A stretch of 57,405 nt of DNA from a virus (taxonomy: Duplodnaviria; Caudoviricetes), in IMG/VR virus record IMGVR_UViG_3300036834_000217, positions 1-57,405 of that record; one strand, 5' to 3'. Within the stretch, counting starts at the first letter, position 1. The number at the start of each line of letters is the position of its first letter. The position numbers were made by a program, and so were the translations under genes. The notes beneath the pieces were generated by a model. The model worked only from the letters and a program-made list of their open reading frames with translations, was not told the DNA's origin and did no database searches. Shown here piece by piece: positions 1 to 45,038 of this stretch.

Positions 1-4
1 GCTG

Positions 5-529
5 GTGAATATGGTGGACGGGAGGAGCGGCAGCTCGACGCCCCACGGCACGGTCTACAAGATCCCGTACTTCCGATACCAGAGCGCCCTCGGCTCGGTC
101 ATCGCCGACCCGGTCAAGGGTGACATCGGGGAGATCGTCGTCCACGATCGGGACACCAGCGTGGTCCGGGCGAACGCGGACCAGGCGAACCCAGGGTCGA
201 GGAGGCGGCACGACCTAGCCGACGGCGTGTACCACGGCCAGCACCTGTCGACCGCGACCCCGGCCCAGGGCGTCGCCTTCACGGGTACCGGCCTGAAGAT
301 ATTCGACAAGAACGGGAACACGATCACCCTGGCCAACAACCTGATCACGATCCAGGTCGGGAACGCCACCTATACGCTCGACCAGAATGGCAAATTCTCG
401 GCATCCGGGGAGGTCGAGGCGTACGCCGGCGGAACGGGGGCTGGGTCGAATGTCCACCTCTCGACCCACGGGCACTCCAGCGTTCAGGTCGGGTCCGGGC
501 AGAGCGGCCCGCCCGTCCCGGGCTCGTAG
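5..529 (+). CDS. Baseplate spike/gpV (Gp138-like) protein, probably 5'-truncated by the window edge
   Basis: Motifs DPVKGDIG...DRD, RRHDLADG and C-terminal 'LSTHGHSSVQVG' (HxH spike tip); directly upstream of baseplate genes. Confidence 0.75.
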   Translation: MNMVDGRSGSSTPHGTVYKIPYFRYQSALGSVIADPVKGDIGEIVVHDRDTSVVRANADQANPGSRRRHDLADGVYHGQHLSTATPAQGVAFTGTGLKIFDKNGNTITLANNLITIQVGNATYTLDQNGKFSASGEVEAYAGGTGAGSNVHLSTHGHSSVQVGSGQSGPPVPGS

Positions 530-598
530 GATCGGCGGCATGGCCGATCTCTCGCTGCGGAGGATAGCTGAGCGGTCTCGCCCGCTACTAGGGATACC

Positions 599-1036
599 AT
601 GAAGACTCTCGCGCTGTCCACGCCAGACCAGACCGGAGGAGGCTGGGATCTGGTCGTTGACTCATCCGGCAACCTGGCCGTAAATTCCGGCGGCGTCGCG
701 CTTGCCCAGGATGTGGCCAGCGCGGTACGAACTTTTAGGGGAGAGCAGTGGTACGACTGGACCCTCGGCGTCCCGTACTTCCAGCAGATCCTCGGCCGGC
801 GAGTTTCCCTCCAGTTCGTGAAGCAGGCGCTCGTCGCGGCCGGGATGACCGTGCCGGACGTCGCCTCGATCACCTGCTTCCTGACCGGCCCCGGCGCGGG
901 CCGCGAGGTCGGAGGTCAATTGCAGATCAGGAGCACCAGCGGGCAGGTCGCGGTGGCCGAGACCGGGAACCTGCTCGGCACGCTGCCGTGGTGGGTATCG
1001 GCAGTCAGTGAGGAAGCCGCCGGAGCGACTACGTGA
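599..1036 (+). CDS. Baseplate wedge subunit (gp25/W-like)
   Basis: WDLVVDSSGNLA...AQDVASAVRTFRGEQWYD..LGVPY pattern typical of this myophage gene; lies between spike and baseplate J. Confidence 0.7.
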   Translation: MKTLALSTPDQTGGGWDLVVDSSGNLAVNSGGVALAQDVASAVRTFRGEQWYDWTLGVPYFQQILGRRVSLQFVKQALVAAGMTVPDVASITCFLTGPGAGREVGGQLQIRSTSGQVAVAETGNLLGTLPWWVSAVSEEAAGATT

Positions 1037-2466
1037 GCAACGGCTTCGTAACTGCGGTTCCTCAGCCGACCTTCGGGCCGACTGGAGTCGTCCTCCCGAC
1101 CGAGGACGCGATCCTCACCGGCGTCCAGACCGATATAAACTCGGCGCTCGGCGGGGGCGTCAACCCGGGGCTGACGACCCCCCAGGGGCAGATCGCGACC
1201 TCCGCCACCGCGATCATCGGGGACAACTACGCATTCCAGGAGTGGGTCTTCAGTCAGTTCGACCCGGCGCTCAACGAGGGCCGCGGGCAGGATGCAGTCG
1301 GGCGCATCTACTTCATGGATCGGATCTCGGCCGAGCCGACCGTCCAACCGTGCGTCTGCTCGGGCCTCAACACGACGCCGATACCTGTGGGGGCCCAGGC
1401 CCAGGACCCGGCGACTGGATTAATCTGGCTTTGCCAGCAGGCCGGGGCGATCGGGGCCTCGGGCACAGTTACTCTGAACTTCGAGTGCGCGACCTCTGGC
1501 CCGATCGCGGCGCCATCCAGCCTGAGGATCTACCAGCAGATCTACGGGTGGGAGAGCGTCGCCCCGACTGGATCCTCGGTACTCGGCAACCTCGTCGAGA
1601 CCCCGAGCCAGTACGAGGCCAGGCGGAGGGCGTCGGTCGCGGCCAACGCCAACCAGATCCTCGACGCGATCCAGGGCAAGGTACTCGCCCTGCCCGGCGT
1701 CCTCGACTTCTATGGCTATGACAACGTCCTGGCCACCAACGCGACGGTGGGCGGCGTGACGCTCGGGCCCAACTCGATCTACGTCGCCGTCCTCGGCGGA
1801 TCCTCCGCGGCCATCGCGTCCGCGATCTACTCGAAGAAGGGGCCGGGGTGCGGCTACAACGGCAACACGTGGGTGACGGTCCAGGACCCCAACCCGGCCT
1901 ACGTGCCGCCCGTGCCGACCTACAGCGTTGGCTACACCGTGCCGACGCTGGTCCCGTTCGTCGTCCTCGTCACGATGTCCAACAACTCGGGCGTCCCGAG
2001 CAACGCGCTGGCCCTGATCCAGAACGTTATCATCAGCGCCTTCGCCGGACTCGACGGGGGCTCCCGCGCCAAGGTCGGGTCGAGGGTACTGGCCAGCCGC
2101 TACTACGCCGGCGTCCTCGCTCTCGGGTCGTGGGCGCAGGTAGTGGAGATAGAGCTGGGAGTCCGCGGCAGCGGCGCGACGTTCACTGGGTCCATCACGC
2201 TTACCACGCTCACGGTCTCCGCCGTGGCCAGCGGGACGCTGGTCCCCGGCCAGCTGCTGCAGGACGCCGGGTTGCTGGCCACCGGCACCATCCTCGGGGT
2301 ACAGCTTACCGGAACGACTGGTGGTACCGGTACTTACACAGTGAGCAAGTCTCAGTCCGTCGCGTCCGAGACGATGTCCTCGACTACCCTCCTGGACTCG
2401 GTTACGATGAACATAAACCAGGCGCCGTCCGTGTCGGCCCTTAATATCAACCTGGTATTGCAGTGA
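1033..2466 (+). CDS. Baseplate J-like protein
   Basis: TPQGQIA, FDP...GRGQDAVGRIYF, G...ET...YEARR motifs; 477 aa; gene order. Confidence 0.85.
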   Translation: MSNGFVTAVPQPTFGPTGVVLPTEDAILTGVQTDINSALGGGVNPGLTTPQGQIATSATAIIGDNYAFQEWVFSQFDPALNEGRGQDAVGRIYFMDRISAEPTVQPCVCSGLNTTPIPVGAQAQDPATGLIWLCQQAGAIGASGTVTLNFECATSGPIAAPSSLRIYQQIYGWESVAPTGSSVLGNLVETPSQYEARRRASVAANANQILDAIQGKVLALPGVLDFYGYDNVLATNATVGGVTLGPNSIYVAVLGGSSAAIASAIYSKKGPGCGYNGNTWVTVQDPNPAYVPPVPTYSVGYTVPTLVPFVVLVTMSNNSGVPSNALALIQNVIISAFAGLDGGSRAKVGSRVLASRYYAGVLALGSWAQVVEIELGVRGSGATFTGSITLTTLTVSAVASGTLVPGQLLQDAGLLATGTILGVQLTGTTGGTGTYTVSKSQSVASETMSSTTLLDSVTMNINQAPSVSALNINLVLQ

Positions 2467-2473
2467 GGGGATT

Positions 2474-2797
2474 TTGATGATAGGCGCCCCGGACGTCGCA
2501 CCGCTGACTGAGGACGACAAGCTCTACGGCGCCGCGTTCAAGGTCGTGTACGAGCGCCTGAACCCGGACGCCTGCGGCCCGAGCGAGTGGCCCAAGCTGT
2601 GTGCCACGGCGGAGGTCATGCGCACCTGGGCGAGGGAGCAGGAGCCGGCCGTCCGCAGGGCGTACGAGCGCGCCATCGACGGCGAGGATCCCAGGTACCC
2701 GGGAATGATGCAGCGCGCCGCGGCTCGCGTCGAGAACGTGAGGCGCGGGGTCATCATGACAGACGCCTACAACTCCATCGCGAAGCCGCCGGTGTGA
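2474..2797 (+). CDS. Hypothetical protein inserted in the baseplate operon next to an orphan repeat array
   Basis: 107-aa ORF with upstream GAGGGG and phage-like codon usage. Confidence 0.55.
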   Translation: MMIGAPDVAPLTEDDKLYGAAFKVVYERLNPDACGPSEWPKLCATAEVMRTWAREQEPAVRRAYERAIDGEDPRYPGMMQRAAARVENVRRGVIMTDAYNSIAKPPV

Positions 2798-2826
2798 GGA
2801 AAGGAACGGGTGAGAGGATTTGTGTC

Positions 2827-2962
2827 CGATCCTCTTACCCGACTCGACTCGCTCTGAGTGATCGGTACTCTCAATGGCCGCGGCTCACTCTGGTCTCACG
2901 GTACTCTCCGAGATGCCGGCTCGCTCGACACTTCCGGTACTCTCGACGGCATCGGCTCGTCT
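2827..2962 (-). repeat. TIGR-like dual-repeat array 1 (orphan; 3 intact units plus 1 degenerate, 36-nt period)
   Basis: + strand CGGTACTCTC-type motifs at 2827 (degenerate), 2863, 2899, 2935 alternate with CGGCTCGCTC-type motifs at 2845, 2881, 2917, 2953; 8-nt variable spacers. Confidence 0.85.
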
Positions 2963-2979
2963 CTTAAATATACGGCTAG

Positions 2980-3666
2980 ATGATTAATTGGCAGCAAACC
3001 GTTCTGTCGCAGTATGCGTCCAGTCCGCGGCTCATGTCGCTGCTGACCGCGATCGACGCCTGGATCTCTCCCGACGGGGCGTACGAGAACTTCTACCAGT
3101 TCGTTTGGAACGTCCTGAGCGCCTCCAGCGGAAACGGAGGCGGATATAGCTATGGACTGGACGTATGGGGGAGAATCGTCAACATCCCCCGCGTCGTGAC
3201 TCTCACCGGCGTGCCGACTACCGGCTTCGCCGAGGCCGGCGACCGGGTAGGCTTCAACCAGGGGCCGTTCTACGAGGCTGGCATCGGCGTCACTACCAAC
3301 TTCCGGCTCGGCGATCCAGTCTACCGCCAGCTCATCCTGGCCAAGGCCGCCTACAACATCACCGACGGGTCGACCCAGGCGATCAACGCCATCCTGATGA
3401 ACCTGTTCGCCTACCGCGGAAACTGCTGGGTCACGGACGGGCGCAACGTCGGGCCCTCGTCGGTCGGCTTCGCCGAGGCCGGCGACCGGCTCGGCTTCAA
3501 CCAGGGCCCGTTCTACGACCTGATTCACCCGTCCCTCCCGGCGAATATGACACTCACCTATACGTTCTCGTTTCCTCTCCAGGACTTCGAGAAGGCAATA
3601 GTCCAGTCCGGCGTCCTGCCCAAGCCGACCGGAGTCCAGGCGTTCTGGGCGTTCCTCGGGGGTTGA
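2980..3666 (+). CDS. Baseplate protein (DUF2612-like)
   Basis: TVLSQYASSP, GLDVWGRIV, YRQLILAKA..NI, VLPKPTGV motifs; follows baseplate J. Confidence 0.8.
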   Translation: MINWQQTVLSQYASSPRLMSLLTAIDAWISPDGAYENFYQFVWNVLSASSGNGGGYSYGLDVWGRIVNIPRVVTLTGVPTTGFAEAGDRVGFNQGPFYEAGIGVTTNFRLGDPVYRQLILAKAAYNITDGSTQAINAILMNLFAYRGNCWVTDGRNVGPSSVGFAEAGDRLGFNQGPFYDLIHPSLPANMTLTYTFSFPLQDFEKAIVQSGVLPKPTGVQAFWAFLGG

Positions 3667-3670
3667 TCTA

Positions 3671-4372
3671 GTGCTACTGAGTCAGATACCTGCCAAGGTG
3701 CCCACGCCGTGGGCGAGTGGCTCCGGCTCGCCGTACATCCGCGCGGTCCCGACGCCGTCGCAGCAGAGCGTCCAGAATGGGGCGGCGAGCTTCACGGACG
3801 GGTTCCCGCCGCTCTGCTTCGTGCCGATCGCCACCGGCGGCGCCGGATTCTTCGGCTCCGACATGAACGGCATCCTGAATCAGGTCACCGCGGACATCCA
3901 GTGGCAGCAGGCGGGGGCGCCGTTCACGTTCGACCCCGCGTGGGCCACGGCGATCGGCGGCTACCCGCACGGTGCCCTGATCCCGTCGGACTCGGCGCCG
4001 GGTCAGTTCTGGTACTCGACGGTCGACAACAACTCGGCGGACCCAGACACGGGCGGAGCCAACTGGCTGTCGTACGCGATGCTGCTTGGTGGCACTGGGA
4101 ACGCCCAGATCATCCAGGTCGGGAACTCGCCCACTATAAACTGCTCGGCTGGCTACGGGCAAACAGCCGTCACCTTCCCGGTCGCCTTCCCCCACGCCTG
4201 CCTCCAGGTCGTGGCCAGCGACGACGGCGTGTTCCAGGGGGTCGTGGGGGGATGCGTGGTCTACGCGTGCAGCAGTATCACGGTTAACGGGTTTACTCTG
4301 ACCGCCGCTACGCCGGCCCAGCCGACTAGCACCGCTGCCGTGAACGCACGATACATAGCGGTAGGGTGGTGA
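3671..4372 (+). CDS. Tail fibre protein
   Basis: AS(F)TDGFPP...GG...G.DMNGIL, FD..WATAIGGYP.GA, S..DNN..DP motifs; C-terminal 'FPVAFPHAC' domain. Confidence 0.8.
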   Translation: MLLSQIPAKVPTPWASGSGSPYIRAVPTPSQQSVQNGAASFTDGFPPLCFVPIATGGAGFFGSDMNGILNQVTADIQWQQAGAPFTFDPAWATAIGGYPHGALIPSDSAPGQFWYSTVDNNSADPDTGGANWLSYAMLLGGTGNAQIIQVGNSPTINCSAGYGQTAVTFPVAFPHACLQVVASDDGVFQGVVGGCVVYACSSITVNGFTLTAATPAQPTSTAAVNARYIAVGW

Positions 4373-4373
4373 T

Positions 4374-4910
4374 ATGACGCAGTACGCGTACCACGACTCG
4401 TCCCAGCCAGACCCCAAGCCGGTGATCGGCTGGTACGACACCGAGCTGTATCGCTACCAGAGCCTCCCGGATCCCTCGAACCTGCTGGAGATGTCCCAGG
4501 AGCAGTGGGCGAAGCGCCAGGACGGCCTCTGGGCCGTGCAGAGTGGTACACTAGTTCCCTACTCTCCACCGGCGCCAGCGCCTTCCCTAGCACAGCGGGC
4601 GGCGACGCTACTGGTCGGTGGGCTGGACATCGTGAGCACGGGCGACCCGTCGCTGAGCGCCACCTACCCGTGCGACCTGATGGCCCAGCAGCAGATCTCC
4701 GCCGAGGTGGTCAGCATCCTGCTGAACGGTACGTTCACCGATGGCGGCCCCTCGATAGAGTGGCGCGACGCGGCCGGCGGTGATCACGCGCTCTCGGCGG
4801 ACCAATTTAAGGCATTAGCTACCGCCATCGCGGCGTTCGTGACAGCCTGCGCGAAGTGCGTCGCCGGGCAATCGACGACACTCCCATCTGCGAGATCCGA
4901 GATATCATGA
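4374..4910 (+). CDS. Tail fibre assembly/chaperone-like protein (DUF4376-like C-terminus)
   Basis: Follows tail fibre; 'VIGWYDT' N-terminus and 'WRDA.G..H.LSADQF..LA.A' C-terminus. Confidence 0.6.
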   Translation: MTQYAYHDSSQPDPKPVIGWYDTELYRYQSLPDPSNLLEMSQEQWAKRQDGLWAVQSGTLVPYSPPAPAPSLAQRAATLLVGGLDIVSTGDPSLSATYPCDLMAQQQISAEVVSILLNGTFTDGGPSIEWRDAAGGDHALSADQFKALATAIAAFVTACAKCVAGQSTTLPSARSEIS

Positions 4911-5809
4911 TCATCGCGGTGAACTCGTCCCCAGACGCCAGCGTATCTATCAACACCGCGCTGGCGCAGGCAGCCTCCCAGGGGGGCGGGGAGGTCATCA
5001 TCCCCGCCGGTCGATACCACGTCCCGCCGGCGTCGAGCATCAGGTGGCCGGCCAGCGCCAACGGCGTCAGCCTGGTCGGCGAGGGTCCGCTGGCATCGGT
5101 GATCCAGGCCGACGCCCGCGGCTCCGACCTGCTCGACCTGACCGCGGGCAACCTGGCCCACGTCAGGATCGCGGGACTCGGTATCTCGGCCCTCGCTCCC
5201 TGCTCCGGCGGAGCCATGATCCACGCGGCGAACTGCTACGACCTCGTGGTCGAGCGCGTGAGACTAGATGGCCCGCTCCGCGATGGAATCGCGATCGATG
5301 GGGGGACGAACCAGTACCTCACGACGCTCTCGTTCGTCGTGATGCCCGGTGACCCGCGCTCCTTCCGCTGCGTGGTCATCGGAGAGGCCGGGTACCCGCA
5401 GGACACGTACATCAGCCTGTGCAAGTTCGCCGCGACGCAGTACGGCATCTGGGTCCAGAACGCCGGGGGGGTCTACCCGTCCAGCACGGAGGTGCTGGGT
5501 CACGCCCAGCACGGACTCGTCACCTACCCGATGCCCGGGCAGTCCGTCGACTGGTTCCAGGCGACTCAGTTCCTCGCCGACTCGTGCGGCGGGACCGGGT
5601 GGTACCTCGGATCGGGTGGTGGTACCGTTCGCGGCGTCTCGTTATCTAACTCGTGGGCGGCGTCGTGCAACAACGGACTGGAGATCTCCGGCCAGTGCGC
5701 CGACGTCTGCGTCGACGCCCCGACCAGGTTCCTGGCCAACCGCAACCGATCGGTGATTGACTACGGCGGAACGAACGTCAGGGTCTCGGCCTGGATGGAC
5801 AGACCCTAA
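4907..5809 (+). CDS. Pectin-lyase-fold beta-helix protein (putative tailspike/depolymerase)
   Basis: N-terminal 'INTALAQAASQGGGEVIIPAGRY' and 'VSLVGEG..SVI' (Pectate_lyase_3-type); ATG 4907 overlaps the previous stop. Confidence 0.7.
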   Translation: MIIAVNSSPDASVSINTALAQAASQGGGEVIIPAGRYHVPPASSIRWPASANGVSLVGEGPLASVIQADARGSDLLDLTAGNLAHVRIAGLGISALAPCSGGAMIHAANCYDLVVERVRLDGPLRDGIAIDGGTNQYLTTLSFVVMPGDPRSFRCVVIGEAGYPQDTYISLCKFAATQYGIWVQNAGGVYPSSTEVLGHAQHGLVTYPMPGQSVDWFQATQFLADSCGGTGWYLGSGGGTVRGVSLSNSWAASCNNGLEISGQCADVCVDAPTRFLANRNRSVIDYGGTNVRVSAWMDRP

Positions 5810-6162: not shown

Positions 6163-6183
6163 CTCATCTCCTTTTTTTGAGGG

Positions 6184-6214
6184 AAGGGAGGCCCGAGTGG
6201 GCCTCCCTTTTTTT
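6184..6214 (+). terminator. Rho-independent terminator for rightward tail transcription
   Basis: AAGGGAGGCCC-GAGT-GGGCCTCCCTT hairpin followed by a T run. Confidence 0.8.
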
Positions 6215-6226
6215 GTCTAAAATTTA

Positions 6227-6376
6227 CGCTCTTAAGCACACGGTACTCTCTCCTCGCTCGGCTCGCTCAGCTTCACCGGTACTCTCCTCGCAGTCGGCTC
6301 GCTCGTAGAGCACGGCACTCTCTCCTCACTCGGCTCGCTCGTGGACAACGGTACTCTCTACCCACTCGGCTCGACG
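6227..6376 (-). repeat. TIGR-like dual-repeat array 2 (4 units)
   Basis: CGG(T/C)ACTCTC at 6241, 6277, 6313, 6349 and CGGCTCG(CTC) at 6259, 6295, 6331, 6367; exact 36-nt period. Confidence 0.9.
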
Positions 6377-6387
6377 TCGGCTCGACG

Positions 6388-6951
6388 TCACGGACGGGGC
6401 GGATCGGGTGGGTGGCCGCCCTGGTGGTCTGGTGGGGGAGGGCCCCTCTTCTCCAGCTCGTCCAGAATAGATTGGCGAAGGAGGCGCGCACCCTCGTCCT
6501 CCCAGCAGTCCTTAACCTGTTGGGTATCGTCCATCGGCTGCGCCAGGGCCTCGTAGAACTTCGCACGCCCGAAGTGCCCGTTCCCGGATGACCTCTCGTG
6601 CTTGGCCTCCCTCAGTAGGTCGTGCTTGTACGCGACGTCGAGGGTGGTGTTGCCGATGGGCCACGACGCGAGCATCGTGAGGGTGCGACGGCGGATCGCC
6701 AGCTTGGCGTTGGGATAGTCGTATCGTGGCGCGCCCGCTGCGACGGGTCGGACGCCATCAGACAGCTCCTCCGCCATTATGCGGGAGCGCTGTGTCTTGC
6801 GCATGTGGTGCTGCGCCCGGACGAGTCCCCCGCGCAGTAGGTATTCTATGAGCTCTCGGTGCTTGCGCGGGCTCCGGAGCAGGGCGTCCACTACGGCATC
6901 GATGCTGCCGTGCTCGGCCAGCAGCTTCAGTATTTCATTCTCGTGAGGCAA
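6388..6951 (-). CDS. Hypothetical protein nested between TIGR arrays (candidate Tas accessory)
   Basis: 187-aa ORF, TTG start 7 nt after AGGAG, bounded by arrays 2 and 3. Confidence 0.7.
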   Translation of the reverse strand: MPHENEILKLLAEHGSIDAVVDALLRSPRKHRELIEYLLRGGLVRAQHHMRKTQRSRIMAEELSDGVRPVAAGAPRYDYPNAKLAIRRRTLTMLASWPIGNTTLDVAYKHDLLREAKHERSSGNGHFGRAKFYEALAQPMDDTQQVKDCWEDEGARLLRQSILDELEKRGPPPPDHQGGHPPDPPRP

Positions 6952-6972
6952 ATGCCATCTCCTCTGATTAAT

Positions 6973-7192
6973 TCGCTCCTAGGTCCCGGTACTCTCAGCT
7001 CGCGCGGCTCGCTCGCCATTCGCGGTACTCTCCCTTCTATCGGCTCGCTCGGTAATCACGGTACTCTTCGACCTTTCGGCTCGCTCGATATGTCACAGCA
7101 CTCTCCGACCTTTCGGCTCGCTCGATGGATGCGGTACTCTCCCGTTCGACGGCTCGCTCGGGGACCACGGTACTCTCGCCGGAGGCGGCTCA
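6973..7192 (-). repeat. TIGR-like dual-repeat array 3 (6 units)
   Basis: Loop-type motifs at 6987, 7023, 7059, 7096, 7132, 7168 alternate with CGGCTCGCTC; 36-37 nt period; directly downstream of the Nop-domain gene. Confidence 0.92.
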
Positions 7193-7194
7193 AT

Positions 7195-8223
7195 TTACTC
7201 GGCGGCGAGCGCCTCGTATCCGTAATATGCCTCCGCGAACCCGGGAAACATGTTAATATCGGGGATGCGGATCTCGTGGGCATGTCCCAGGATCGCGGTC
7301 GCGAACGGTCTCGGCGGAGCCTGGTGGTTCTTGTTCCAGTGCATGATCGCCTGGACGTGCGACAGGAAGATCTTGGTGGCGTAGTTGCAAGCCTGTTGAT
7401 CCAGGTTGCCTGCCGGGAGCCTACCCTCATTCAGTACCTTGCGCACGTCCGCCGACCTGGTCGCGAAGACCTTGGCGCGCTCGGCGTAGTCGCCGTGCTC
7501 GTTGCGGGCCACGACCAGCGCCTTGTGCTCGCGATAGAGCCTCCCGTAGAGTGCCCGCGGCTCGCCCGATATCCGCTTGAAGCACTGCCCCGCGTGCCAG
7601 CAGATCTGCTTGAGGTCGGGACTGTAGGGGCGCCTGCTGAGTGCCTTGGCCAGTGACGCCCGCGTCAGCGGCACCGGGTTCCCGGCGTGGTCGGTCGTCG
7701 CGAACCTCAGTACCACGGAGAACTTCTTCCCGGTCTGCTCGCATAGGATCCGGACGTCCCGGTCCGTGGGCTGGGCGCCCCTGACGGCCTTGCACACCAT
7801 CTTGTCTGCGGCCTCCCGACTGATCCACTTGGCCGTCGGGTCGAGCCCCGCAAATGCCCAGATCGCCCCGGCCGTCGTTGCCCGCTCTATGTCGATGTAC
7901 GCCAGCAGCCCGGCCGCGATCACCTCCGCGACTCCGTCCTGGGTCATCATCCATAGGCCGACCGGACTTGCCTCGGCAAACTTCCGAAGTGCTTTCTTGA
8001 GGTCGTCCTCTATCGACGCCTGGGCGTCGCCGAAGTAGTCGAGCATGCTGACCGGGTCGTCCTTGTCGCCCCGATGGCGGAGCTGCATGTCTGCGCGTTT
8101 CCTTAGATCTTGTGCCTGGTAGTAGTTCGCCACGAGGCACCTCGCCTCGCCATTCGTGAGATTAGACGCGGAGAGGATCCTCTCTCTATCAGCCTTGATG
8201 TTCTTCGTGTCGGTACGCCTCAT
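7195..8223 (-). CDS. tasA: TasA-like Nop/IS110-related RNA-binding protein (no nuclease domain)
   Basis: Coiled coil (YYQAQDLRKR), then 'GVAEVIAAGLLAYIDIERATTAGAIWAFAGLDP' (IS110 Transposase_20/Nop fold), 'RPY...LK', 'YGRLY...K', 'KIFLSH'; no N-terminal RuvC DEDD; flanked on both sides by 36-nt dual-repeat arrays. Confidence 0.85.
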   Translation of the reverse strand: MRRTDTKNIKADRERILSASNLTNGEARCLVANYYQAQDLRKRADMQLRHRGDKDDPVSMLDYFGDAQASIEDDLKKALRKFAEASPVGLWMMTQDGVAEVIAAGLLAYIDIERATTAGAIWAFAGLDPTAKWISREAADKMVCKAVRGAQPTDRDVRILCEQTGKKFSVVLRFATTDHAGNPVPLTRASLAKALSRRPYSPDLKQICWHAGQCFKRISGEPRALYGRLYREHKALVVARNEHGDYAERAKVFATRSADVRKVLNEGRLPAGNLDQQACNYATKIFLSHVQAIMHWNKNHQAPPRPFATAILGHAHEIRIPDINMFPGFAEAYYGYEALAAE

Positions 8224-8246
8224 TTTGATCTCCTTTTTAAATTAAG

Positions 8247-8454
8247 TCGCTCTCTTCCTTCGATACTCTCAGTTTACACGGCTCGCTCAGCTTCACCGGT
8301 ACTCTCCCTTCGATACGGCTCGCTCGGTTATGTCGGCACTCTCGATTCGATCGGCTCGCTCCCTATTTACGGTACGCTCCCTTTGATACGGCTCGCTCCG
8401 CGATCTCGGTACTTTCCAGCTTATCGGCTCGCTTGTCCGGTTTTCGGTACTCTG
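8247..8454 (-). repeat. TIGR-like dual-repeat array 4 (5 units plus a partial)
   Basis: Loop-type motifs at 8261, 8297, 8334, 8370, 8407, 8445; edge-type at 8279, 8316, 8352, 8389, 8425. Confidence 0.9.
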
Positions 8455-8455
8455 A

Positions 8456-40994: not shown

Positions 40995-43900
40995 ATGAAG
41001 TTCACTCGCGTGCTGACCTATGACAAGCCGAACGACGTGCGCGTCGAGGACTGGATCCGGTGGAGGATCGTCGACGCGGTGATTACCGCTCCCGATGGGA
41101 GGGTGATCTTCGAGCAGCGCGGCGTCGAGGTGCCGGAGCAGTGGTCTCAAAACGCCGCAAACATCCTGGCTCAGAAGTACTTCCGCAAGGCCGGAGTACC
41201 GAGTGCGGTCTCTTACCATTTAGGTGTCCCCGACATGCCTGAGTGGCTGCGTCCGCGAGTTCCCGTGAATAGCGCGACGTTCGGCGGCGAAACCTCTGCA
41301 AAGCATGTCTTTCACCGCATGGCCGGGTGCTGGACCTACTGGGGATGGCGCGAGGGTCTGCTCACGTCCGAGGATGATGCCCGCGTCTTCTACGACGAGG
41401 TGTTTGCCTCCCTGGCGCTCCAGTACGCCGCCCCTAACTCGCCCCAGTGGTTCAACACGGGGATCCACTGGGCCTATGGCATCGAGGGACCGGACTCCGG
41501 CCAGTGGTACGCCGGTGACGTGAGTCCATATTTCGAGGGAACTCGGTTAAAGATGCCTCGGATCGAAGTCAAGCGCATCCACAATAGCTACGAGCGTCCC
41601 CAGCCCCACGCCTGCTTCATACAGACCGTCGAGGACGACCTGGTTAACCCGGGCGGCATGATGGATTTGTGGACGCGCGAGGCCCGCCTGTTCAAGCACG
41701 GGTCAGGCTCCGGTTCGAACATGAGTAAGATCCGGGGCCGGGGCGAGAAGCTGTCCGGGGGCGGAGTCAGCAGTGGATTGATGTCGTTCCTCCGCGTCGG
41801 CGACCGCTCGGCCGGGTCGATCAAGAGTGGTGGGACGACGCGTCGCGCGGCCCTCATGCGCGTCCTGGACATGGACCATCCCGAGATCGAGGACTTCATC
41901 GACTGGAAGGCTACCGAGGAGTACAAGGCCGCGTGCATCGCGGTCGGGAGCCGCGTGATCCACGATCGACTGACGAGCGTGGCGCGGCACAGGGGCGACG
42001 ACCGGCGCGTCCCACGATTCGACCGCGAGGCCGACGCGCTCGGCTCCTGGGTACCGCAGTCCCTGGTGGACCGCGCGAAGGCGGGGGAATCTGACTGGCC
42101 CGTGCACGAGGCCGACTCGTTCGAGGGCGATGCCATCGAGACGGTCTCGGGACAGAACTCAAATAACTCGGTGCGCGTCTCCAACGATTTCTTGCACCAG
42201 GTCGATAATCCTGACCGCTTGCACTCGCTCACGGCTCGTACGACTGGTGAGGTCGTTCGCTACGTTCCCGTGCGAGGACTATGGACCCGGCTGTGCCGCG
42301 CGGCGTGGGCCAGCGGGGACCCAGGCGTCCAGTTCTCCGATACGATCAACGACTGGCACACGTGCCGCGCCGACGGCCCGATCAACGCCAGTAATCCATG
42401 CTGCTTCGTCGGCGAGACCTTCGTCGACACGAGCGAGGGCTTTATTTCTATCGAGGAACTGGCCCGCATGTCTGCTGTCGGGGAGGATCTGCCTTGGGCA
42501 TTCTGCTTCGATCAAGAGGACGCCCTTCCGGACCTGCGTCCTATCGCGCGTGCCTGGTGCTCGGGATATGCGCACAAGTTGACCGAAGTGACGACGCGGA
42601 ATGGCCAGGTCTTGTACTGTACGCCGGAGCACGGGTGGCTTACGCGTCGTGCCGAAGGCTACGTCGCGGCGAGGGATCTCCGCGTCGGTACGAGCCTTCA
42701 GAAGATTAATCGTGAGATCAATACGAAGCGGTCTGATCGCGTGGTGCTTACGCATCGAAGTGTGGGAGAGTCCAGTTACGGGAGATCTTCCCAGCATAAG
42801 TTCGTCTGGGAGAAGATGCGTGGTGCGGTGCCTAGCGACTACGATGTTCATCACCTAAACGAAGATCCGACCGACGATCGGTTTTCGAACCTGGGGATTA
42901 AGGAGTTCAGCCTCCATCAGTCGGAGCATAGTCGTGGTGATAGGAATCCGCGGTTTCTGGATGTAGATGATGAGACTCTAGTGGAGGTCTACGACGCTGC
43001 GGGGAGGGATCCTCTCTCGACTCGTCGTAGGGGGAAAGGAATCGTTACCGTAGGTGTGTGGAATAAGTACGTTAGGAAGATGGGGTTGTTCGGCGTTGTT
43101 CCCTTGGGGAATCTCCGCGACGGAGGTCGCATCCGGGGAATGTCGTGGGATAGCTTCGTCGAGCGTATGGAGGCCGCTCGCGCTCGGGTGAACGACTCGG
43201 TACTGTCGGTTAAGTCCATCGAGTTGGATGATCCAGTTCCGGTCTACGACATCGAGGTCGAGGGATGCCACAATTTTGGCGTTCGCTCCGATGCGACCCG
43301 AAACGGCGATTCTATAATCGTTCATAACTCTGAGTACCTCTTCCTCGACGATACCGCGTGCAATCTTGCATCGATCCGCCTGACGAAGTTTCTGCCGCTC
43401 GACGACGCCGCCATGAGTAAGTTCGATCACGTCGTCCGCCTGTGGACCGTCGTATTGGAGATCTCGGTCTACATGGCGTCGTTCCCGAGCGAGGCCATCG
43501 CCCGCAACTCCTACCTGTATAGGACGCTCGGCCTGGGCTATACCGACCTCGGCGGCCTGCTGATGCGGCAGGCCATTCCCTACGCCTCGGACGAGGGACG
43601 CGCGATCGCCGCCGGCCTGACCGCGCTGATGACTGGCGTCGCCTACCGGACCAGTGCGGAGATGGCCGCCGAAGTGGGGTCGTTCCTGCGGTGGGAAGCG
43701 AACGCCGAGAATATGCGTAGGGTACTGCGCAACCACAGGACCGCGCTATTTACCGAAAAGCTGTTCTACGCTCCTATGAGGATCGATCCATATCGAAAGC
43801 CGGCGCTCCAGATGGAGAGTGGCTTGAGGGATCGGTGTCTGGCGGTCTGGGATCTCGTGGTAGCAGCGCCAGCCTTTCGCAACGCCCAAGTAACATTGCT

Positions 43901-45038
43901 CGCCCCGACCGGTACCATCTCGTTCGTCATGGACTGCGATACGACTGGGATAGAGCCCGACTTCGCCCTGGTCAAGCACAAGAGCCTGGCCGGCGGCGGA
44001 TCCATGCGGATCGTCAACCAGGCAGTTGAGGAAGGTCTCCGACGTAAAGGTCGAAGCGAGAGCTGGATCAGCGAGGCACTGGCCGAGATAGAGTGGACGG
44101 ATAAGCTGAAATTTACTGACTCTGTCGAATTCGCTTGTGCCAATGATATCGCGTGGGAAGATCACGTCAAGATGGTCGCCGTCGTCCAGCCGTTCCTGTC
44201 TGGAGGCGTGAGTAAGACGATCAACATGCCACGCGACGCTACGGTAGACGACGTCGATCGTGCATACCGCCTGGCCCACCAGCTCGGGGTCAAGACCATC
44301 TCGATATACCGAGACGGTAGTAAATTGTCGCAACCTCTCTCATCGAGACGAGACGAGAGTACCGAGCAAGCTGAGCGAGTCGCCCCACGGGAGAGTATCG
44401 AGTATCTAGAGCGCTTACCTCGCGGCGCCCGCGAGTATCTTCCTTGGCGTCGCGAGGCAGGCTGGACCCAGAAAATTAAGATCGGCCAGGACCGTCAGAG
44501 CGTCTTCCTCCGCGTGTCCGAGTACCCCGACGGACGCCCCGGCGAGGTGTTCCTGGAGATCGCGGGCGAGGGCAGTACCCTCCGCGCCCTGGCCAACTGC
44601 CTCGCCATCTCGATCTCGGTGGGGCTCCAGCGCGGCGTTCCGGTCGCCGAGTACGTGGACCAGCTCGTCGGGCTCAAGTTCGAGCCGGCCGGCTACGTCG
44701 AGGGCCACTCCCGCATCAGGTTCGCCAGTTCGATCGCCGACTACATAGGACGGGAGCTGGGGATCTCATACGCCGGCCGCGACGACCTGGCGAACGCGCC
44801 CGCCCCGATCGCGGAGGCCGTCGAGCGTATCGCGGAGCACTCCGAGCGACTGGACGAGGAGTGGAGACTGTCCGTCAAGGACAATGAGCAGCTCGTGGCG
44901 CACGGTAATCAGACGACGACGATGTCGAAGTATTTTGAACAGACCGGCGACATGTGCCCCGGCTGCGGCGCCCTCCTCCGCCGGGCCGGCACCTGCCGCT
45001 CGTGCCCGAACTGCTCCTGGAGCGAGGGGTGCGGGTGA
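40995..45038 (+). CDS. nrdJ: Class II (B12-dependent) ribonucleotide reductase with an intein and a C-terminal TSCPD/Zn-ribbon domain
   Basis: 'PNSPQWFN', 'PQPHACFI', 'GGTTRRAA', 'NPC|SEY', 'CNLAS', 'LGLGY', 'APTGTI', 'SKTINMP', 'YRDGSK'. Confidence 0.95.
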   Translation: MKFTRVLTYDKPNDVRVEDWIRWRIVDAVITAPDGRVIFEQRGVEVPEQWSQNAANILAQKYFRKAGVPSAVSYHLGVPDMPEWLRPRVPVNSATFGGETSAKHVFHRMAGCWTYWGWREGLLTSEDDARVFYDEVFASLALQYAAPNSPQWFNTGIHWAYGIEGPDSGQWYAGDVSPYFEGTRLKMPRIEVKRIHNSYERPQPHACFIQTVEDDLVNPGGMMDLWTREARLFKHGSGSGSNMSKIRGRGEKLSGGGVSSGLMSFLRVGDRSAGSIKSGGTTRRAALMRVLDMDHPEIEDFIDWKATEEYKAACIAVGSRVIHDRLTSVARHRGDDRRVPRFDREADALGSWVPQSLVDRAKAGESDWPVHEADSFEGDAIETVSGQNSNNSVRVSNDFLHQVDNPDRLHSLTARTTGEVVRYVPVRGLWTRLCRAAWASGDPGVQFSDTINDWHTCRADGPINASNPCCFVGETFVDTSEGFISIEELARMSAVGEDLPWAFCFDQEDALPDLRPIARAWCSGYAHKLTEVTTRNGQVLYCTPEHGWLTRRAEGYVAARDLRVGTSLQKINREINTKRSDRVVLTHRSVGESSYGRSSQHKFVWEKMRGAVPSDYDVHHLNEDPTDDRFSNLGIKEFSLHQSEHSRGDRNPRFLDVDDETLVEVYDAAGRDPLSTRRRGKGIVTVGVWNKYVRKMGLFGVVPLGNLRDGGRIRGMSWDSFVERMEAARARVNDSVLSVKSIELDDPVPVYDIEVEGCHNFGVRSDATRNGDSIIVHNSEYLFLDDTACNLASIRLTKFLPLDDAAMSKFDHVVRLWTVVLEISVYMASFPSEAIARNSYLYRTLGLGYTDLGGLLMRQAIPYASDEGRAIAAGLTALMTGVAYRTSAEMAAEVGSFLRWEANAENMRRVLRNHRTALFTEKLFYAPMRIDPYRKPALQMESGLRDRCLAVWDLVVAAPAFRNAQVTLLAPTGTISFVMDCDTTGIEPDFALVKHKSLAGGGSMRIVNQAVEEGLRRKGRSESWISEALAEIEWTDKLKFTDSVEFACANDIAWEDHVKMVAVVQPFLSGGVSKTINMPRDATVDDVDRAYRLAHQLGVKTISIYRDGSKLSQPLSSRRDESTEQAERVAPRESIEYLERLPRGAREYLPWRREAGWTQKIKIGQDRQSVFLRVSEYPDGRPGEVFLEIAGEGSTLRALANCLAISISVGLQRGVPVAEYVDQLVGLKFEPAGYVEGHSRIRFASSIADYIGRELGISYAGRDDLANAPAPIAEAVERIAEHSERLDEEWRLSVKDNEQLVAHGNQTTTMSKYFEQTGDMCPGCGALLRRAGTCRSCPNCSWSEGCG
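42402..43328 (+). mobile_element. Intein (309 aa) with an HNH endonuclease
   Basis: Begins CFVGET, block B 'CTPEH', ends 'VYDIEVEGCHNF...IIVHN' before Ser; central 'VHHLNEDPTDDRFSNL...H..EH'. Confidence 0.92.

What the first reader, a model, noticed from the sequence alone, without database searches (positions are those of the whole stretch)
2474..2962. Orphan guide array plus an unknown gene inserted between baseplate J and the DUF2612 gene
Seen: the same two repeats at exact 36-nt period (2827-2962), with spacers not shared with the other arrays, more than 4 kb from the Tas gene and antisense to the late structural operon, next to a 107-aa ORF. Established: baseplate J and the DUF2612-like gene are usually adjacent. 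Inference: TIGR arrays can spread or be seeded at distant sites and act in trans. The AT-rich TATATTTAAG just upstream on the minus strand may be its own promoter, which bears on how arrays and spacers are acquired.
Basis: partly seen in the sequence, partly recalled or inferred. Interest (0 to 1): 0.7.

Follow-up and report, generated by a model that had tools for sequence, protein, structure and literature searches.

The report
Satellite TIGR guide mini-array in phage
A soil phage that carries the recently described TIGR-Tas RNA-guided system keeps three extra guide units in a small separate array wedged backwards between two tail genes, while the "unknown gene" beside it is an ordinary resident of that tail-gene block.

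Summary
The repeats are real. Eight repeat positions sit in an exact 18-nt register (2827-2962). They give three complete 36-nt dual-repeat TIGR units on the minus strand, with six spacers found in no other array of the window.

It is not an orphan. A nuclease-less Tas protein (7195-8223) lies 4.2 kb away on the same strand, and its model matches only TasH/TasR structures. The closest relative (G001, 94% complete) lacks tas, the tas cassette and this array.

The array looks like its own transcription unit. A -10-like TATATT sits 4 nt before a 5'-degenerate first repeat, and a hairpin follows the last unit. In relatives, 100 of 100 arrays share the strand of tas, and none of 132 is truly sandwiched antisense in a foreign operon.

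The 106-aa gene was not inserted with the array. It belongs to a conserved small-protein family of the baseplate module, present in tas-less relatives. No expression data and no targets were obtained.

This scan has already noted detached TIGR arrays in other soil phages. Verdict: a new member of a known kind with an unusual placement. Interest is moderate.

The parts
1033..2466 (+). Baseplate J-like / wedge subunit gene (477 aa), upstream neighbour
   Evidence: PHROG phrog_6 'baseplate wedge subunit' at E 7.2e-36. No Pfam hit at E<=0.01. 74% identical to the J gene of G001/L012.
2477..2797 (+). ORF106: small four-helix protein of an uncharacterised family resident in the baseplate/tail-fibre module; not part of the TIGR system
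   Evidence: GC by codon position is 0.65/0.50/0.92, like the neighbouring genes. No Pfam or PHROG hit. A profile search gave 39 hits at E<=1e-3 and 16 at <=1e-10. A 57%-identical homologue sits in tas-less G001. The AF2 model has pLDDT 95.6 with four helices. No fold match at E<=0.001.
2807..2841 (-). Hairpin downstream of the array on the minus strand (12 pairs with one bulge), followed by a U/C-rich tail; terminator-like, weak U tract
   Evidence: The RNA fold of window:2790-2975:- shows this stem in both the MFE and the centroid structure. The consensus terminator scan did not call it.
2827..2836 (-). Decayed loop-like repeat (3 mismatches) in register; remnant of a fourth half unit
   Evidence: Read. 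It lies 18 nt from the terminal edge repeat.
2845..2890 (-). TIGR unit 3: edge (1 mismatch, a natural variant) - spacer A - perfect loop repeat - spacer B - terminal edge (C8->T)
   Evidence: The variant GAGTGAGCCG occurs in 7 of 307 internal edges of relatives. GAGCGAGTCG occurs in 0 of 307.
2881..2926 (-). TIGR unit 2: perfect edge - spacer A - perfect loop - spacer B - edge (1 mismatch)
2917..2962 (-). TIGR unit 1: 5'-degenerate first edge repeat (2953-2962) - spacer A - perfect loop - spacer B - perfect edge
   Evidence: A 5'-truncated first edge repeat is typical of TIGR arrays (PMC12045711, section 4).
2967..2994 (-). Sigma-70-like promoter candidate, CTGCCA-16-TATATT. The -10 ends 4 nt before the first repeat. 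The -35 lies inside the first codons of the DUF2612 gene on the other strand.
   Evidence: Scan: 9 of 12 consensus positions; 2 sites found in 7.1 kb against 0.8 +/- 1.0 in shuffles. The same layout (-10 directly before a truncated first repeat) occurs at array 4 and in 4 of 127 arrays of relatives.
2980..3666 (+). DUF2612 baseplate/structural gene, downstream neighbour
   Evidence: Pfam PF11041 at E 2.7e-38. phrog_587 at E 1.9e-46.
6241..6390 (-). Array 2 (4 units), part of the tas cassette
6987..7193 (-). Array 3 (6 units); starts right after the tas stop codon
7195..8223 (-). tasA-type gene (342 aa, all-helical Nop-type fold, no nuclease domain): the presumed partner of all arrays
   Evidence: phmmer against PDB: TasH at 7.2e-5 and TasR at 9.7e-5. 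AF2 model pLDDT 84.6. The top 10 Foldseek PDB hits are all TasH/TasR, E 6.6e-5 to 2.9e-4.
8261..8454 (-). Array 4 (5 units plus a leading half unit), with TATAAT directly upstream

Best explanation
Positions 2845-2962 (minus strand) are a satellite mini-array of the phage's own dual-repeat TIGR-TasA system. It holds three 36-nt guide units, each with two 8-nt spacers.

Most likely it is a self-contained transcription unit. RNA polymerase starts at a TATATT -10 element a few bases before a 5'-degenerate first repeat. It reads about 150 nt antisense to the late tail operon and stops at the hairpin at 2807-2841. The TasA protein made 4.2 kb away binds and trims the transcript into three tigRNAs. 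Each tigRNA would steer the nuclease-less TasA dimer to a 16-bp DNA site, one spacer per strand, where binding represses rather than cuts.

Shown here: the array anatomy, the strand, the same-genome TasA, absence of the array from a tas-less sister phage, and the promoter-like and terminator-like elements. Inferred: transcription, processing, use in trans, and repression. The neighbouring 106-aa gene is an unrelated, conserved baseplate-module gene.
For: Array and units:
- Exact 18-nt register of 8 repeat positions, with 3 of 3 loop repeats perfect.
- The repeat halves each unit needs are intact. The one internal edge variant is a natural variant (7 of 307), and 8+8-nt spacers are the family norm (291 of 307).

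Strand:
- 100 of 100 arrays in 52 tas-bearing relative loci lie on the strand of tas.
- Both repeats start GAG and end CCG, in the orientation of the published box D/box C layout (PMC12045711, section 8).

Partner protein:
- The Tas model matches only TasH/TasR among hits at E<=0.001 (sequence).

Link to tas:
- G001 (J 74% identical, 94% complete) lacks tas, lacks the 6163-8455 cassette, lacks array 1 and lacks the RNR-embedded units.

Own transcription unit:
- Promoter-like site at 2994..2967, with the same '-10 then truncated first repeat' layout as array 4 and four arrays of relatives.
- A hairpin lies downstream on the minus strand.

Mode of action:
- TasA proteins act as RNA-guided repressors (preprint 10.64898/2026.09.09.750476, sections 12-13).
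Against: - There are no expression data. No RNA run is listed for this phage, so that blank says nothing either way.
- No target was found for any of 19 units at <=1 mismatch in the window, in G001 or in 729 kb of related loci.
- The array is short: 3 units, against the typical 5-15.
- Its 3' end is decayed. The terminal edge carries C8->T, seen in 0 of 307 edges of relatives, and is followed by a degenerate half unit.
- The hairpin has no proper U tract and was not called by the terminator scan.
- The promoter match is only 9 of 12. -10-like hexamers within 45 nt upstream are not enriched overall in relatives: 4 of 127, against roughly 2-3 expected by my rough estimate.
- Whether this TasA has the Y/H processing dyad was not established.
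Confidence: 0.6

Rival explanations
1. Inert relic. A fragment of a TIGR array landed by illegitimate recombination between two tail genes. It is neither transcribed on the minus strand nor used, and is drifting towards loss.
For: - Only 3 units.
- 2 of the 3 full-length edge repeats (2845, 2881, 2917) carry a substitution, and the fourth, leading copy at 2953-2962 is degenerate.
- The terminal edge variant is unseen in 307 edges of relatives.
- A decayed half unit lies at 2827-2836.
- No targets were found.
- The promoter and terminator are only consensus-like.
Against: - All three loop repeats are perfect and the register is exact.
- Every repeat half needed by the three units is intact.
- The substitutions lie where they do not affect these units, or are natural variants.
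- The -10 element is placed exactly as at array 4 and in relatives.
- X1 and X2 contigs show no variant over the stretches they cover. X1 may be the source sample. No X2 contig listed spans 2845-2962.
Confidence: 0.25
2. Real guides without their own promoter. Array 1 is reached only by read-through of the long minus-strand TIGR operon (array 4 - tas - array 3 - ORF187 - array 2 - ORF116), running 2.8 kb antisense through the tail-fibre genes.
For: - In relatives, distal arrays 2.5-7.2 kb from tas sit between co-directional genes and could be co-transcribed.
- No terminator was called after ORF116.
Against: - The intervening 2.8 kb is coding on the opposite strand and would face convergent late transcription.
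- A -10/-35-like site lies immediately upstream of the array.
Confidence: 0.1
3. Not a guide array at all. The element is a chance repeat, or acts on the + strand within the late mRNA, for example as a structure or a peptide-coding stretch.
For: It lies within a + strand operon, and a + strand ORF (2587-2967) runs across it.
Against: - 0 of 100 shuffles reach the observed repeat counts.
- The repeats are identical to those flanking tas and to 79 IMG/VR loci.
- The overlapping + ORF has non-coding composition, GC3 0.55.
- No Rfam family matches.
- The fold z-score is -0.69, so there is no unusual structure.
Confidence: 0.03

Closest known systems
Dual-repeat TIGR-TasA systems (e.g. FpTIGR-TasA of Flavonifractor plautii; Faure et al. 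2025, PMC12045711; sections 4-8, 10, 24 and 49 read)
   Same: Two alternating short repeats with short spacers in 36-nt units. Nuclease-less Nop-type Tas protein. Phage-borne. 5'-degenerate first edge repeat.
   Different: Spacers are 8+8 nt rather than 9+9. The repeats read GAG...CCG rather than UG...CCA. This array is not adjacent to tas: it lies 4.2 kb away behind six genes (ORF187, ORF116 and four + strand tail genes), is antisense to its neighbours and has only 3 units.
SpTIGR-TasH of Salicola phage CGphi29 (PMC12045711; PDB 9w03/9w04/21kl)
   Same: Phage system with 16 nt of spacer per guide. It is the best structural match of the window's Tas model.
   Different: TasH carries an N-terminal HNH nuclease. 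The window's protein starts directly with the helical Nop/coiled-coil part and has a ~65-residue insertion.
Distal co-directional arrays in IMG/VR phages with the same repeat pair
   Same: Identical repeats. Several arrays per genome, up to 7.2 kb from tas in 8 of the 51 contigs where tblastn found tas. Same strand as tas.
   Different: There the arrays sit between genes of the same direction. By my heuristic, 1 of 132 is flanked by opposite-strand genes on both sides, and that one (L078) is an artefact because tas beside it was not called.
Detached TIGR arrays noted earlier by this scan in other soil-phage genomes
   Same: Guide arrays far from a single TasA gene in the same phage genome.
   Different: Those are mostly larger arrays, 23-90 kb away. 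I did not check them. The present one is a 3-unit array embedded antisense in the late operon.
Orphan and virus-borne mini-CRISPR arrays that use an effector encoded elsewhere (recalled from the CRISPR literature; no paper read here)
   Same: A short guide array detached from its effector gene, used in trans.
   Different: A different system with different RNA architecture. Here the effector is in the same genome.

Membership tests
Dual-repeat TIGR array (Faure et al. 2025) | Two distinct alternating 8-12-nt repeats separated by short spacers of fixed length, with a unit of about 36 nt | tested here: met
   10-nt loop and edge repeats and 8-nt spacers, with an exact 36-nt period over 2845-2962.
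Dual-repeat TIGR array (Faure et al. 2025) | Edge and loop repeats share the same 5' (box D-like) and 3' (box C-like) end motifs | tested here: met
   On the minus strand both repeats begin GAG and end CCG. These positions are >=95% conserved in 307 edge and 690 loop repeats of relatives. The letters differ from the published UG/CCA.
Dual-repeat TIGR array (Faure et al. 2025) | A Tas (Nop-domain) protein encoded in the same element | tested here: met
   The product of 7195-8223 matches TasH/TasR by sequence and by fold.
Dual-repeat TIGR array (Faure et al. 2025) | Array directly upstream and/or downstream of tas | tested here: not met
   Array 1 is 4,233 nt from tas. ORF187, ORF116, arrays 2-3 and four + strand tail genes lie between. 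Arrays 2-4 do meet the feature.
Dual-repeat TIGR array (Faure et al. 2025) | [quoted passage not shown] | tested here: inconclusive
   A 5'-degenerate edge repeat is present at 2953-2962. The 3' end has a full edge, a decayed half unit and a hairpin with a weak U tract. The terminator scan did not call it.
Dual-repeat TIGR array (Faure et al. 2025) | Transcribed and processed into 36-nt tigRNAs bound by Tas | not testable with these tools
   No RNA run is listed for this phage. Only metagenome contigs could be laid.
TasA (nuclease-less Tas) | Nop-type helical fold with a coiled coil and no HNH or RuvC domain | tested here: met
   The model is all-helical from residue 13. The PDB alignment places query residues 53-130 on residues 120-212 of TasH/TasR, so no N-terminal nuclease-sized domain is present. 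Pfam finds no nuclease domain.
TasA (nuclease-less Tas) | C-terminal Y/H loop that processes dual-repeat pre-tigRNA | tested here: inconclusive
   A conserved C-terminal PPxP[YF]...GH motif is present in 27 aligned proteins; P306 and H314 of it are invariant. The window has F where most have Y. The dyad was not mapped onto SpTasH.
Orphan guide array (no effector in the genome) | No cognate effector gene in the same genome | tested here: not met
   tas is present 4.2 kb away.
ORF106: any described protein family | Significant match to a curated family or a solved fold | tested here: not met
   Pfam: 0 families for ORF106 at E<=0.01. The 22 aligned members give only six single-member hits, all at E 0.011 or weaker. 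PHROGs 0. Atlas gave no usable hit. Foldseek BFVD and PDB gave no hit at E<=0.001.

The most novel reading that the evidence does not exclude
TIGR units may be mobile within a genome, and this phage may catch them at it. Two ectopic landings share the cassette's repeats. One is a self-promoted 3-unit array lying antisense in the late tail operon. The other is about 1.5 units inserted in frame in the variable linker of the ribonucleotide reductase gene, on the opposite strand to tas. Both are absent from the tas-less sister phage. If so, arrays can be seeded away from tas by a process linked to the Tas system. The antisense placement could also give these three guides their own timing: on early, then silenced by convergent late transcription.
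Probability: 0.2. Interest if true: 0.7.

Novelty: new member of a known kind. Interest (0 to 1): 0.4.

Why it matters
How TIGR arrays arise, grow and are expressed is stated as an open question in both TIGR papers I read (PMC12045711, section 10; preprint 10.64898/2026.09.09.750476, section 13).

This locus offers a small natural test case. It has three guides, an apparent promoter and an apparent terminator. It sits away from tas in a foreign operon, and a sister phage lacks the whole system, which fixes the boundaries of what was gained.

It also suggests that annotation limited to the neighbourhood of tas may under-count guides. The gain is modest:
- the system itself is known;
- detached arrays have already turned up repeatedly in this scan;
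- function is not shown.

Tried and rejected
Targets.
- I searched all 19 guide units in both possible strand geometries, with gaps of 0-2.
- In the window outside the arrays there were 0 hits at <=1 mismatch and 2 hits at 2 mismatches.
- In the whole of G001 there were 0 hits at <=1 mismatch. At 2 mismatches there were 8, against 7 (plus one at 1 mismatch) for reversed-spacer controls.
- In 729 kb of 83 related loci there were 2 one-mismatch hits, both from one array-4 guide, against 4 in controls.
- I did not scan public collections for 16-mers. By my estimate chance hits would number in the tens to hundreds.

Expression.
- No RNA holder is listed.
- X1 (possibly the source sample) and X2 are soil metagenome contig sets. 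What was laid is identical to the window where it covers it.
- No X2 contig listed spans 2845-2962.

Relatives.
- DUF2612 as a single protein found nothing in viral contigs.
- The ORF106 pair alignment found only G001 in viral contigs and nothing in metagenome contigs.
- The 22-member alignment found only G001 in viral contigs and was too diverse for the other two collections.
- The 6-member alignment gave L110/L111 and nothing in genome contigs.
- blastn against 50,697 phage records gave only an 82-nt J match.

ORF106 function.
- Pfam, PHROGs, Atlas, and Foldseek against BFVD and PDB all gave nothing usable.
- The search for homologous proteins returned only the window's own protein among 9 candidates.

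Host.

Rejected readings.
- Homology between array 1 and the 54-codon ORF of G001: the alignment shows none beyond the flanking genes.
- Chance repeat.
- A known RNA family.

Not seen. Supplements of the papers (fig. S4/S5, table S1) and the TIGRSafari resource could not be consulted. They may already list arrays at such distances.

Literature searches behind 'not described':
- 'TIGR-Tas' gave 47 papers, of which I saw the listing.
- 'tigRNA' plus 'orphan' gave 1 review, listing only.
- Term searches inside the two main papers gave: 'orphan' 0 and 0; 'distal' 0 and 3, all three about RNA stems; 'in trans' only in a CRISPR reference.

Full report
WHAT IS THERE

The window is an IMG/VR virus record of 57,405 bp. 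It is linear, estimated 69% complete and 64% G+C, and was recovered from soil metagenomes.

Between the stop of a small + strand gene (2797) and the start of the DUF2612 gene (2980) lie 182 non-coding bases. In them, CGGTACTCTC occurs exactly at 2863, 2899 and 2935. CGGCTCGCTC occurs at 2917 exactly and at 2845 and 2881 with one mismatch each. A degenerate copy at 2953-2962 and a 3-mismatch copy at 2827-2836 keep the register. That gives eight repeat positions exactly 18 nt apart.

Window-wide, both motifs exceed every one of 100 shuffles. The same two repeats build three larger arrays at 6241-6390, 6987-7193 and 8261-8454.

WHICH STRAND, AND WHAT KIND OF ARRAY

Read on the minus strand, the repeats are GAGAGTACCG (loop type) and GAGCGAGCCG (edge type), separated by 8-nt spacers. 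This is the architecture of dual-repeat TIGR arrays: two alternating 8-12-nt repeats, short spacers and 36-nt units processed from mid-edge to mid-edge (PMC12045711, sections 4, 5 and 8).

Three lines fix the minus strand as sense:
- Both repeats start GAG and end CCG, which is the orientation of the published box D and box C positions.
- A scan of IMG/VR for the exact repeat pair returned 79 loci on 70 contigs. tblastn found a tas homologue in 52 of these loci. In those 52 loci, 100 of 100 arrays with at least 3 repeat hits lie on the strand of tas.

THE PARTNER PROTEIN

The 342-aa product of 7195-8223 (minus strand) has several lines of support:
- It scores just below the Pfam threshold for the IS110-type Transposase_20 domain.
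- It matches TasH and TasR chains by sequence, at E 7e-5 and 1e-4.
- Folded with 26 homologues from the fetched loci, it gave pLDDT 84.6. Its ten best PDB matches are all TasH or TasR cryo-EM chains, followed by IS110-family recombinases.
- It is all-helical from residue 13 and has no nuclease domain, so it is a TasA-type protein. It carries a ~65-residue insertion shared with one relative.

Array 1 is therefore not an orphan in the strict sense. Its effector lies 4,233 nt away on the same strand.

IS ARRAY 1 COMPETENT?

The array holds three units. All three loop repeats are perfect. Each unit needs only the 3' half of its upstream edge repeat and the 5' half of its downstream one, and all of these halves are intact.

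The internal variant GAGTGAGCCG is a natural one, seen in 7 of 307 internal edges of relatives. 8+8-nt spacers are the rule there (291 of 307).

The terminal edge has C8->T, seen in 0 of 307 edges. The change lies in the half that only a fourth unit would use, and that fourth unit is decayed anyway. The six spacers are unique within the window.

ITS OWN TRANSCRIPTION UNIT?

Upstream on the minus strand lie + strand tail genes, so co-transcription with tas would need 2.8 kb of antisense read-through.

Directly upstream is CTGCCA-16-TATATT, at 2994..2967. It was one of two promoter-like sites in 7.1 kb, against 0.8 expected. The -10 ends 4 nt before the degenerate first repeat, so a start about 7 nt downstream would fall at the beginning of that repeat.

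The same layout occurs elsewhere:
- array 4 has TATAAT one base before a truncated repeat;
- four arrays of relatives show it, for example a TTGCTT-16-TATAAT promoter 4 nt before a truncated edge repeat in L037.

Overall, such hexamers within 45 nt upstream occur in only 4 of 127 arrays of relatives, which is no more than chance by my rough estimate. The argument therefore rests on position, not frequency.

AT-rich islands are rare in this genome: 40 in 57 kb. Several others look like TATAAT or TATATT promoters.

Downstream on the minus strand, a 12-pair hairpin (2807-2841) is followed by a U/C-rich stretch. It is terminator-like but has a weak U tract, and the scan did not call it.

COMPARISON WITH RELATIVES

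The closest structural relative found is G001, a 114.5-kb record estimated 94% complete, with a J protein 74% identical. It has no tas.

tblastx shows colinearity from window 1 to 5809. The homologue of ORF116 is then followed directly by the homologue of the sigma-like gene. So 6163-8455 (array 2, ORF187, array 3, tas, array 4) is a 2.3-kb cassette that G001 lacks.

At the J/DUF2612 junction G001 has the ORF106 homologue and then a 54-codon ORF overlapping the DUF2612 start. The window has array 1 in that place, and there is no sequence similarity between the two fillers. The array thus goes with the cassette, though this rests on a single comparison.

G002 is a complete 110-kb relative whose Tas is 45% identical. 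It keeps all its arrays within 2.3 kb around tas.

Among the 70 contigs with the same repeats, tblastn found tas on 51. Eight of those 51 have arrays 2.5-7.2 kb from tas; two of the eight look like the same phage. These distal arrays sit between co-directional genes.

By a simple GC3-based gene caller, 73 of 132 arrays have same-strand genes on both sides. Only one has opposite-strand genes on both sides, and that one is an artefact, because tas beside it was not called. Array 1's antisense, sandwiched position is therefore unusual for this family.

THE 'UNKNOWN GENE'

ORF106 (ATG 2477, preceded by a good ribosome-binding site; 106 aa) has coding-type composition. It has no Pfam, PHROG or Atlas assignment.

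It has a 57%-identical homologue at the same position in tas-less G001. A profile search of 1.84 billion representatives gave 39 hits at E<=1e-3 (16 at <=1e-10), most of them 91-125 aa. They share a conserved pattern.

In two metagenome loci (J 56% and DUF2612 52% identical) the order is W, J, DUF2612, ORF106 homologue, tail fibre. In those loci, and in Burkholderia phages PE067 and Bcep781, J and DUF2612 abut.

So J and DUF2612 are indeed usually adjacent, but ORF106 is a conserved small gene that moves about within the baseplate module and has nothing to do with TIGR.

Its model is a confident four-helix bundle (pLDDT 95.6) with no informative structural neighbour. My best guess is a small baseplate or tail-fibre accessory or assembly protein. 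That guess rests on position alone.

MECHANISM, WITH STATUS

Shown here:
- the anatomy of the array and its sense strand;
- a TasA in the same genome;
- absence of the array from a tas-less relative;
- promoter-like and terminator-like elements.

Established elsewhere:
- Tas proteins bind 36-nt tigRNAs, and the two spacers pair with opposite DNA strands (PMC12045711, sections 5-8);
- TasA represses transcription at its targets (preprint 10.64898/2026.09.09.750476, section 12).

Inferred:
- array 1 is transcribed from its own promoter;
- it is processed and loaded in trans by TasA;
- it directs repression of three 16-bp targets;
- its antisense position may couple its expression to the early/late switch.

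From the reported 8-nt 3' overhangs and the 'C - 5' rule, I derived that a target reads spacer A followed by the reverse complement of spacer B. I searched the other geometry as well.

WHAT ARGUES AGAINST

No targets were found in the window, in G001 or in 729 kb of related phage loci. No RNA data exist for this phage. The array is short and frayed at its 3' end. A relic remains a serious rival (0.25).

NOVELTY

The system is known. The main texts I read place arrays upstream of, downstream of, flanking or inside tas. They do not use 'orphan', and 'distal' appears only for RNA stems. Supplements and TIGRSafari were not available to me.

This scan has already recorded detached TIGR arrays 23-90 kb from a single TasA gene in other soil phages, and one Tas-less 3-unit array (not checked by me).

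What is particular here is threefold:
- the mini-array is antisense and apparently self-contained, inside the late operon;
- the insertion boundaries are clean against a tas-less sister phage;
- a second ectopic copy lies inside the ribonucleotide reductase gene.

I rate it a new member of a known kind, with interest 0.4.

Noticed in passing
window 44355-44408 (+), inside ORF 40995-45038: About 1.5 TIGR units lie in frame in the variable linker of a 1,347-aa ribonucleotide-reductase-like gene. The order is loop, spacer, edge with C8->T, spacer, loop with C8->T, spacer, truncated edge, with exact 18-nt spacing. They are on the strand opposite to tas. The tas-less relative G001 has a longer, non-repetitive linker there. 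If TasA processed them, it would cut the RNR mRNA.
   Followed up: partly
window 6163-8455: Array 2, ORF187, array 3, tas and array 4 form a 2.3-kb cassette. G001 lacks it between the ORF116 homologue (89% aa identity) and the sigma-like gene homologue.
   Followed up: partly
window 7195-8223 (-), residues ~135-198: The Tas protein carries a ~65-residue insertion between the conserved GLDPT..W and KRPWN motifs. Only 1 of 26 aligned homologues (L048) shares it. The model's confidence is lower there, with 10-residue block means of 64-80.
   Followed up: no
window 6259-6286 and 8279-8306; 7059-7123; 6241-6373: Spacers are partly redundant. The same spacer B occurs in arrays 2 and 4. One spacer A is repeated in two neighbouring units of array 3. 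The spacer A sequences of array 2 resemble each other. One array-4 spacer A recurs 4 times in array context in relatives.
   Followed up: no
window 6366-6389: An 11-nt tandem duplication of the truncated first edge repeat lies at the 5' end of array 2, right after the ORF187 stop codon.
   Followed up: no
L012 4997-8004 (G001): The relative has two extra genes (571 and 435 aa) between the baseplate W and J genes, where the window has none. Together with the ORF106 and array slots, this marks the baseplate module as a hot spot of gene gain and loss.
   Followed up: no
IMG/VR loci L022-L100: The exact repeat pair of this window is shared by 79 loci on 70 viral contigs, although their Tas proteins are only 24-47% identical to the window's. 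The repeats are far better conserved than the protein. A recurrent '503-aa gene, small array, 73-aa gene, ~870-aa gene' block appears in several contigs.
   Followed up: partly
window 40995-45038: The RNR-like ORF looks interrupted by an intein-like segment with an HNH-type motif. I judged this by eye from the translation and did not test it.
   Followed up: no
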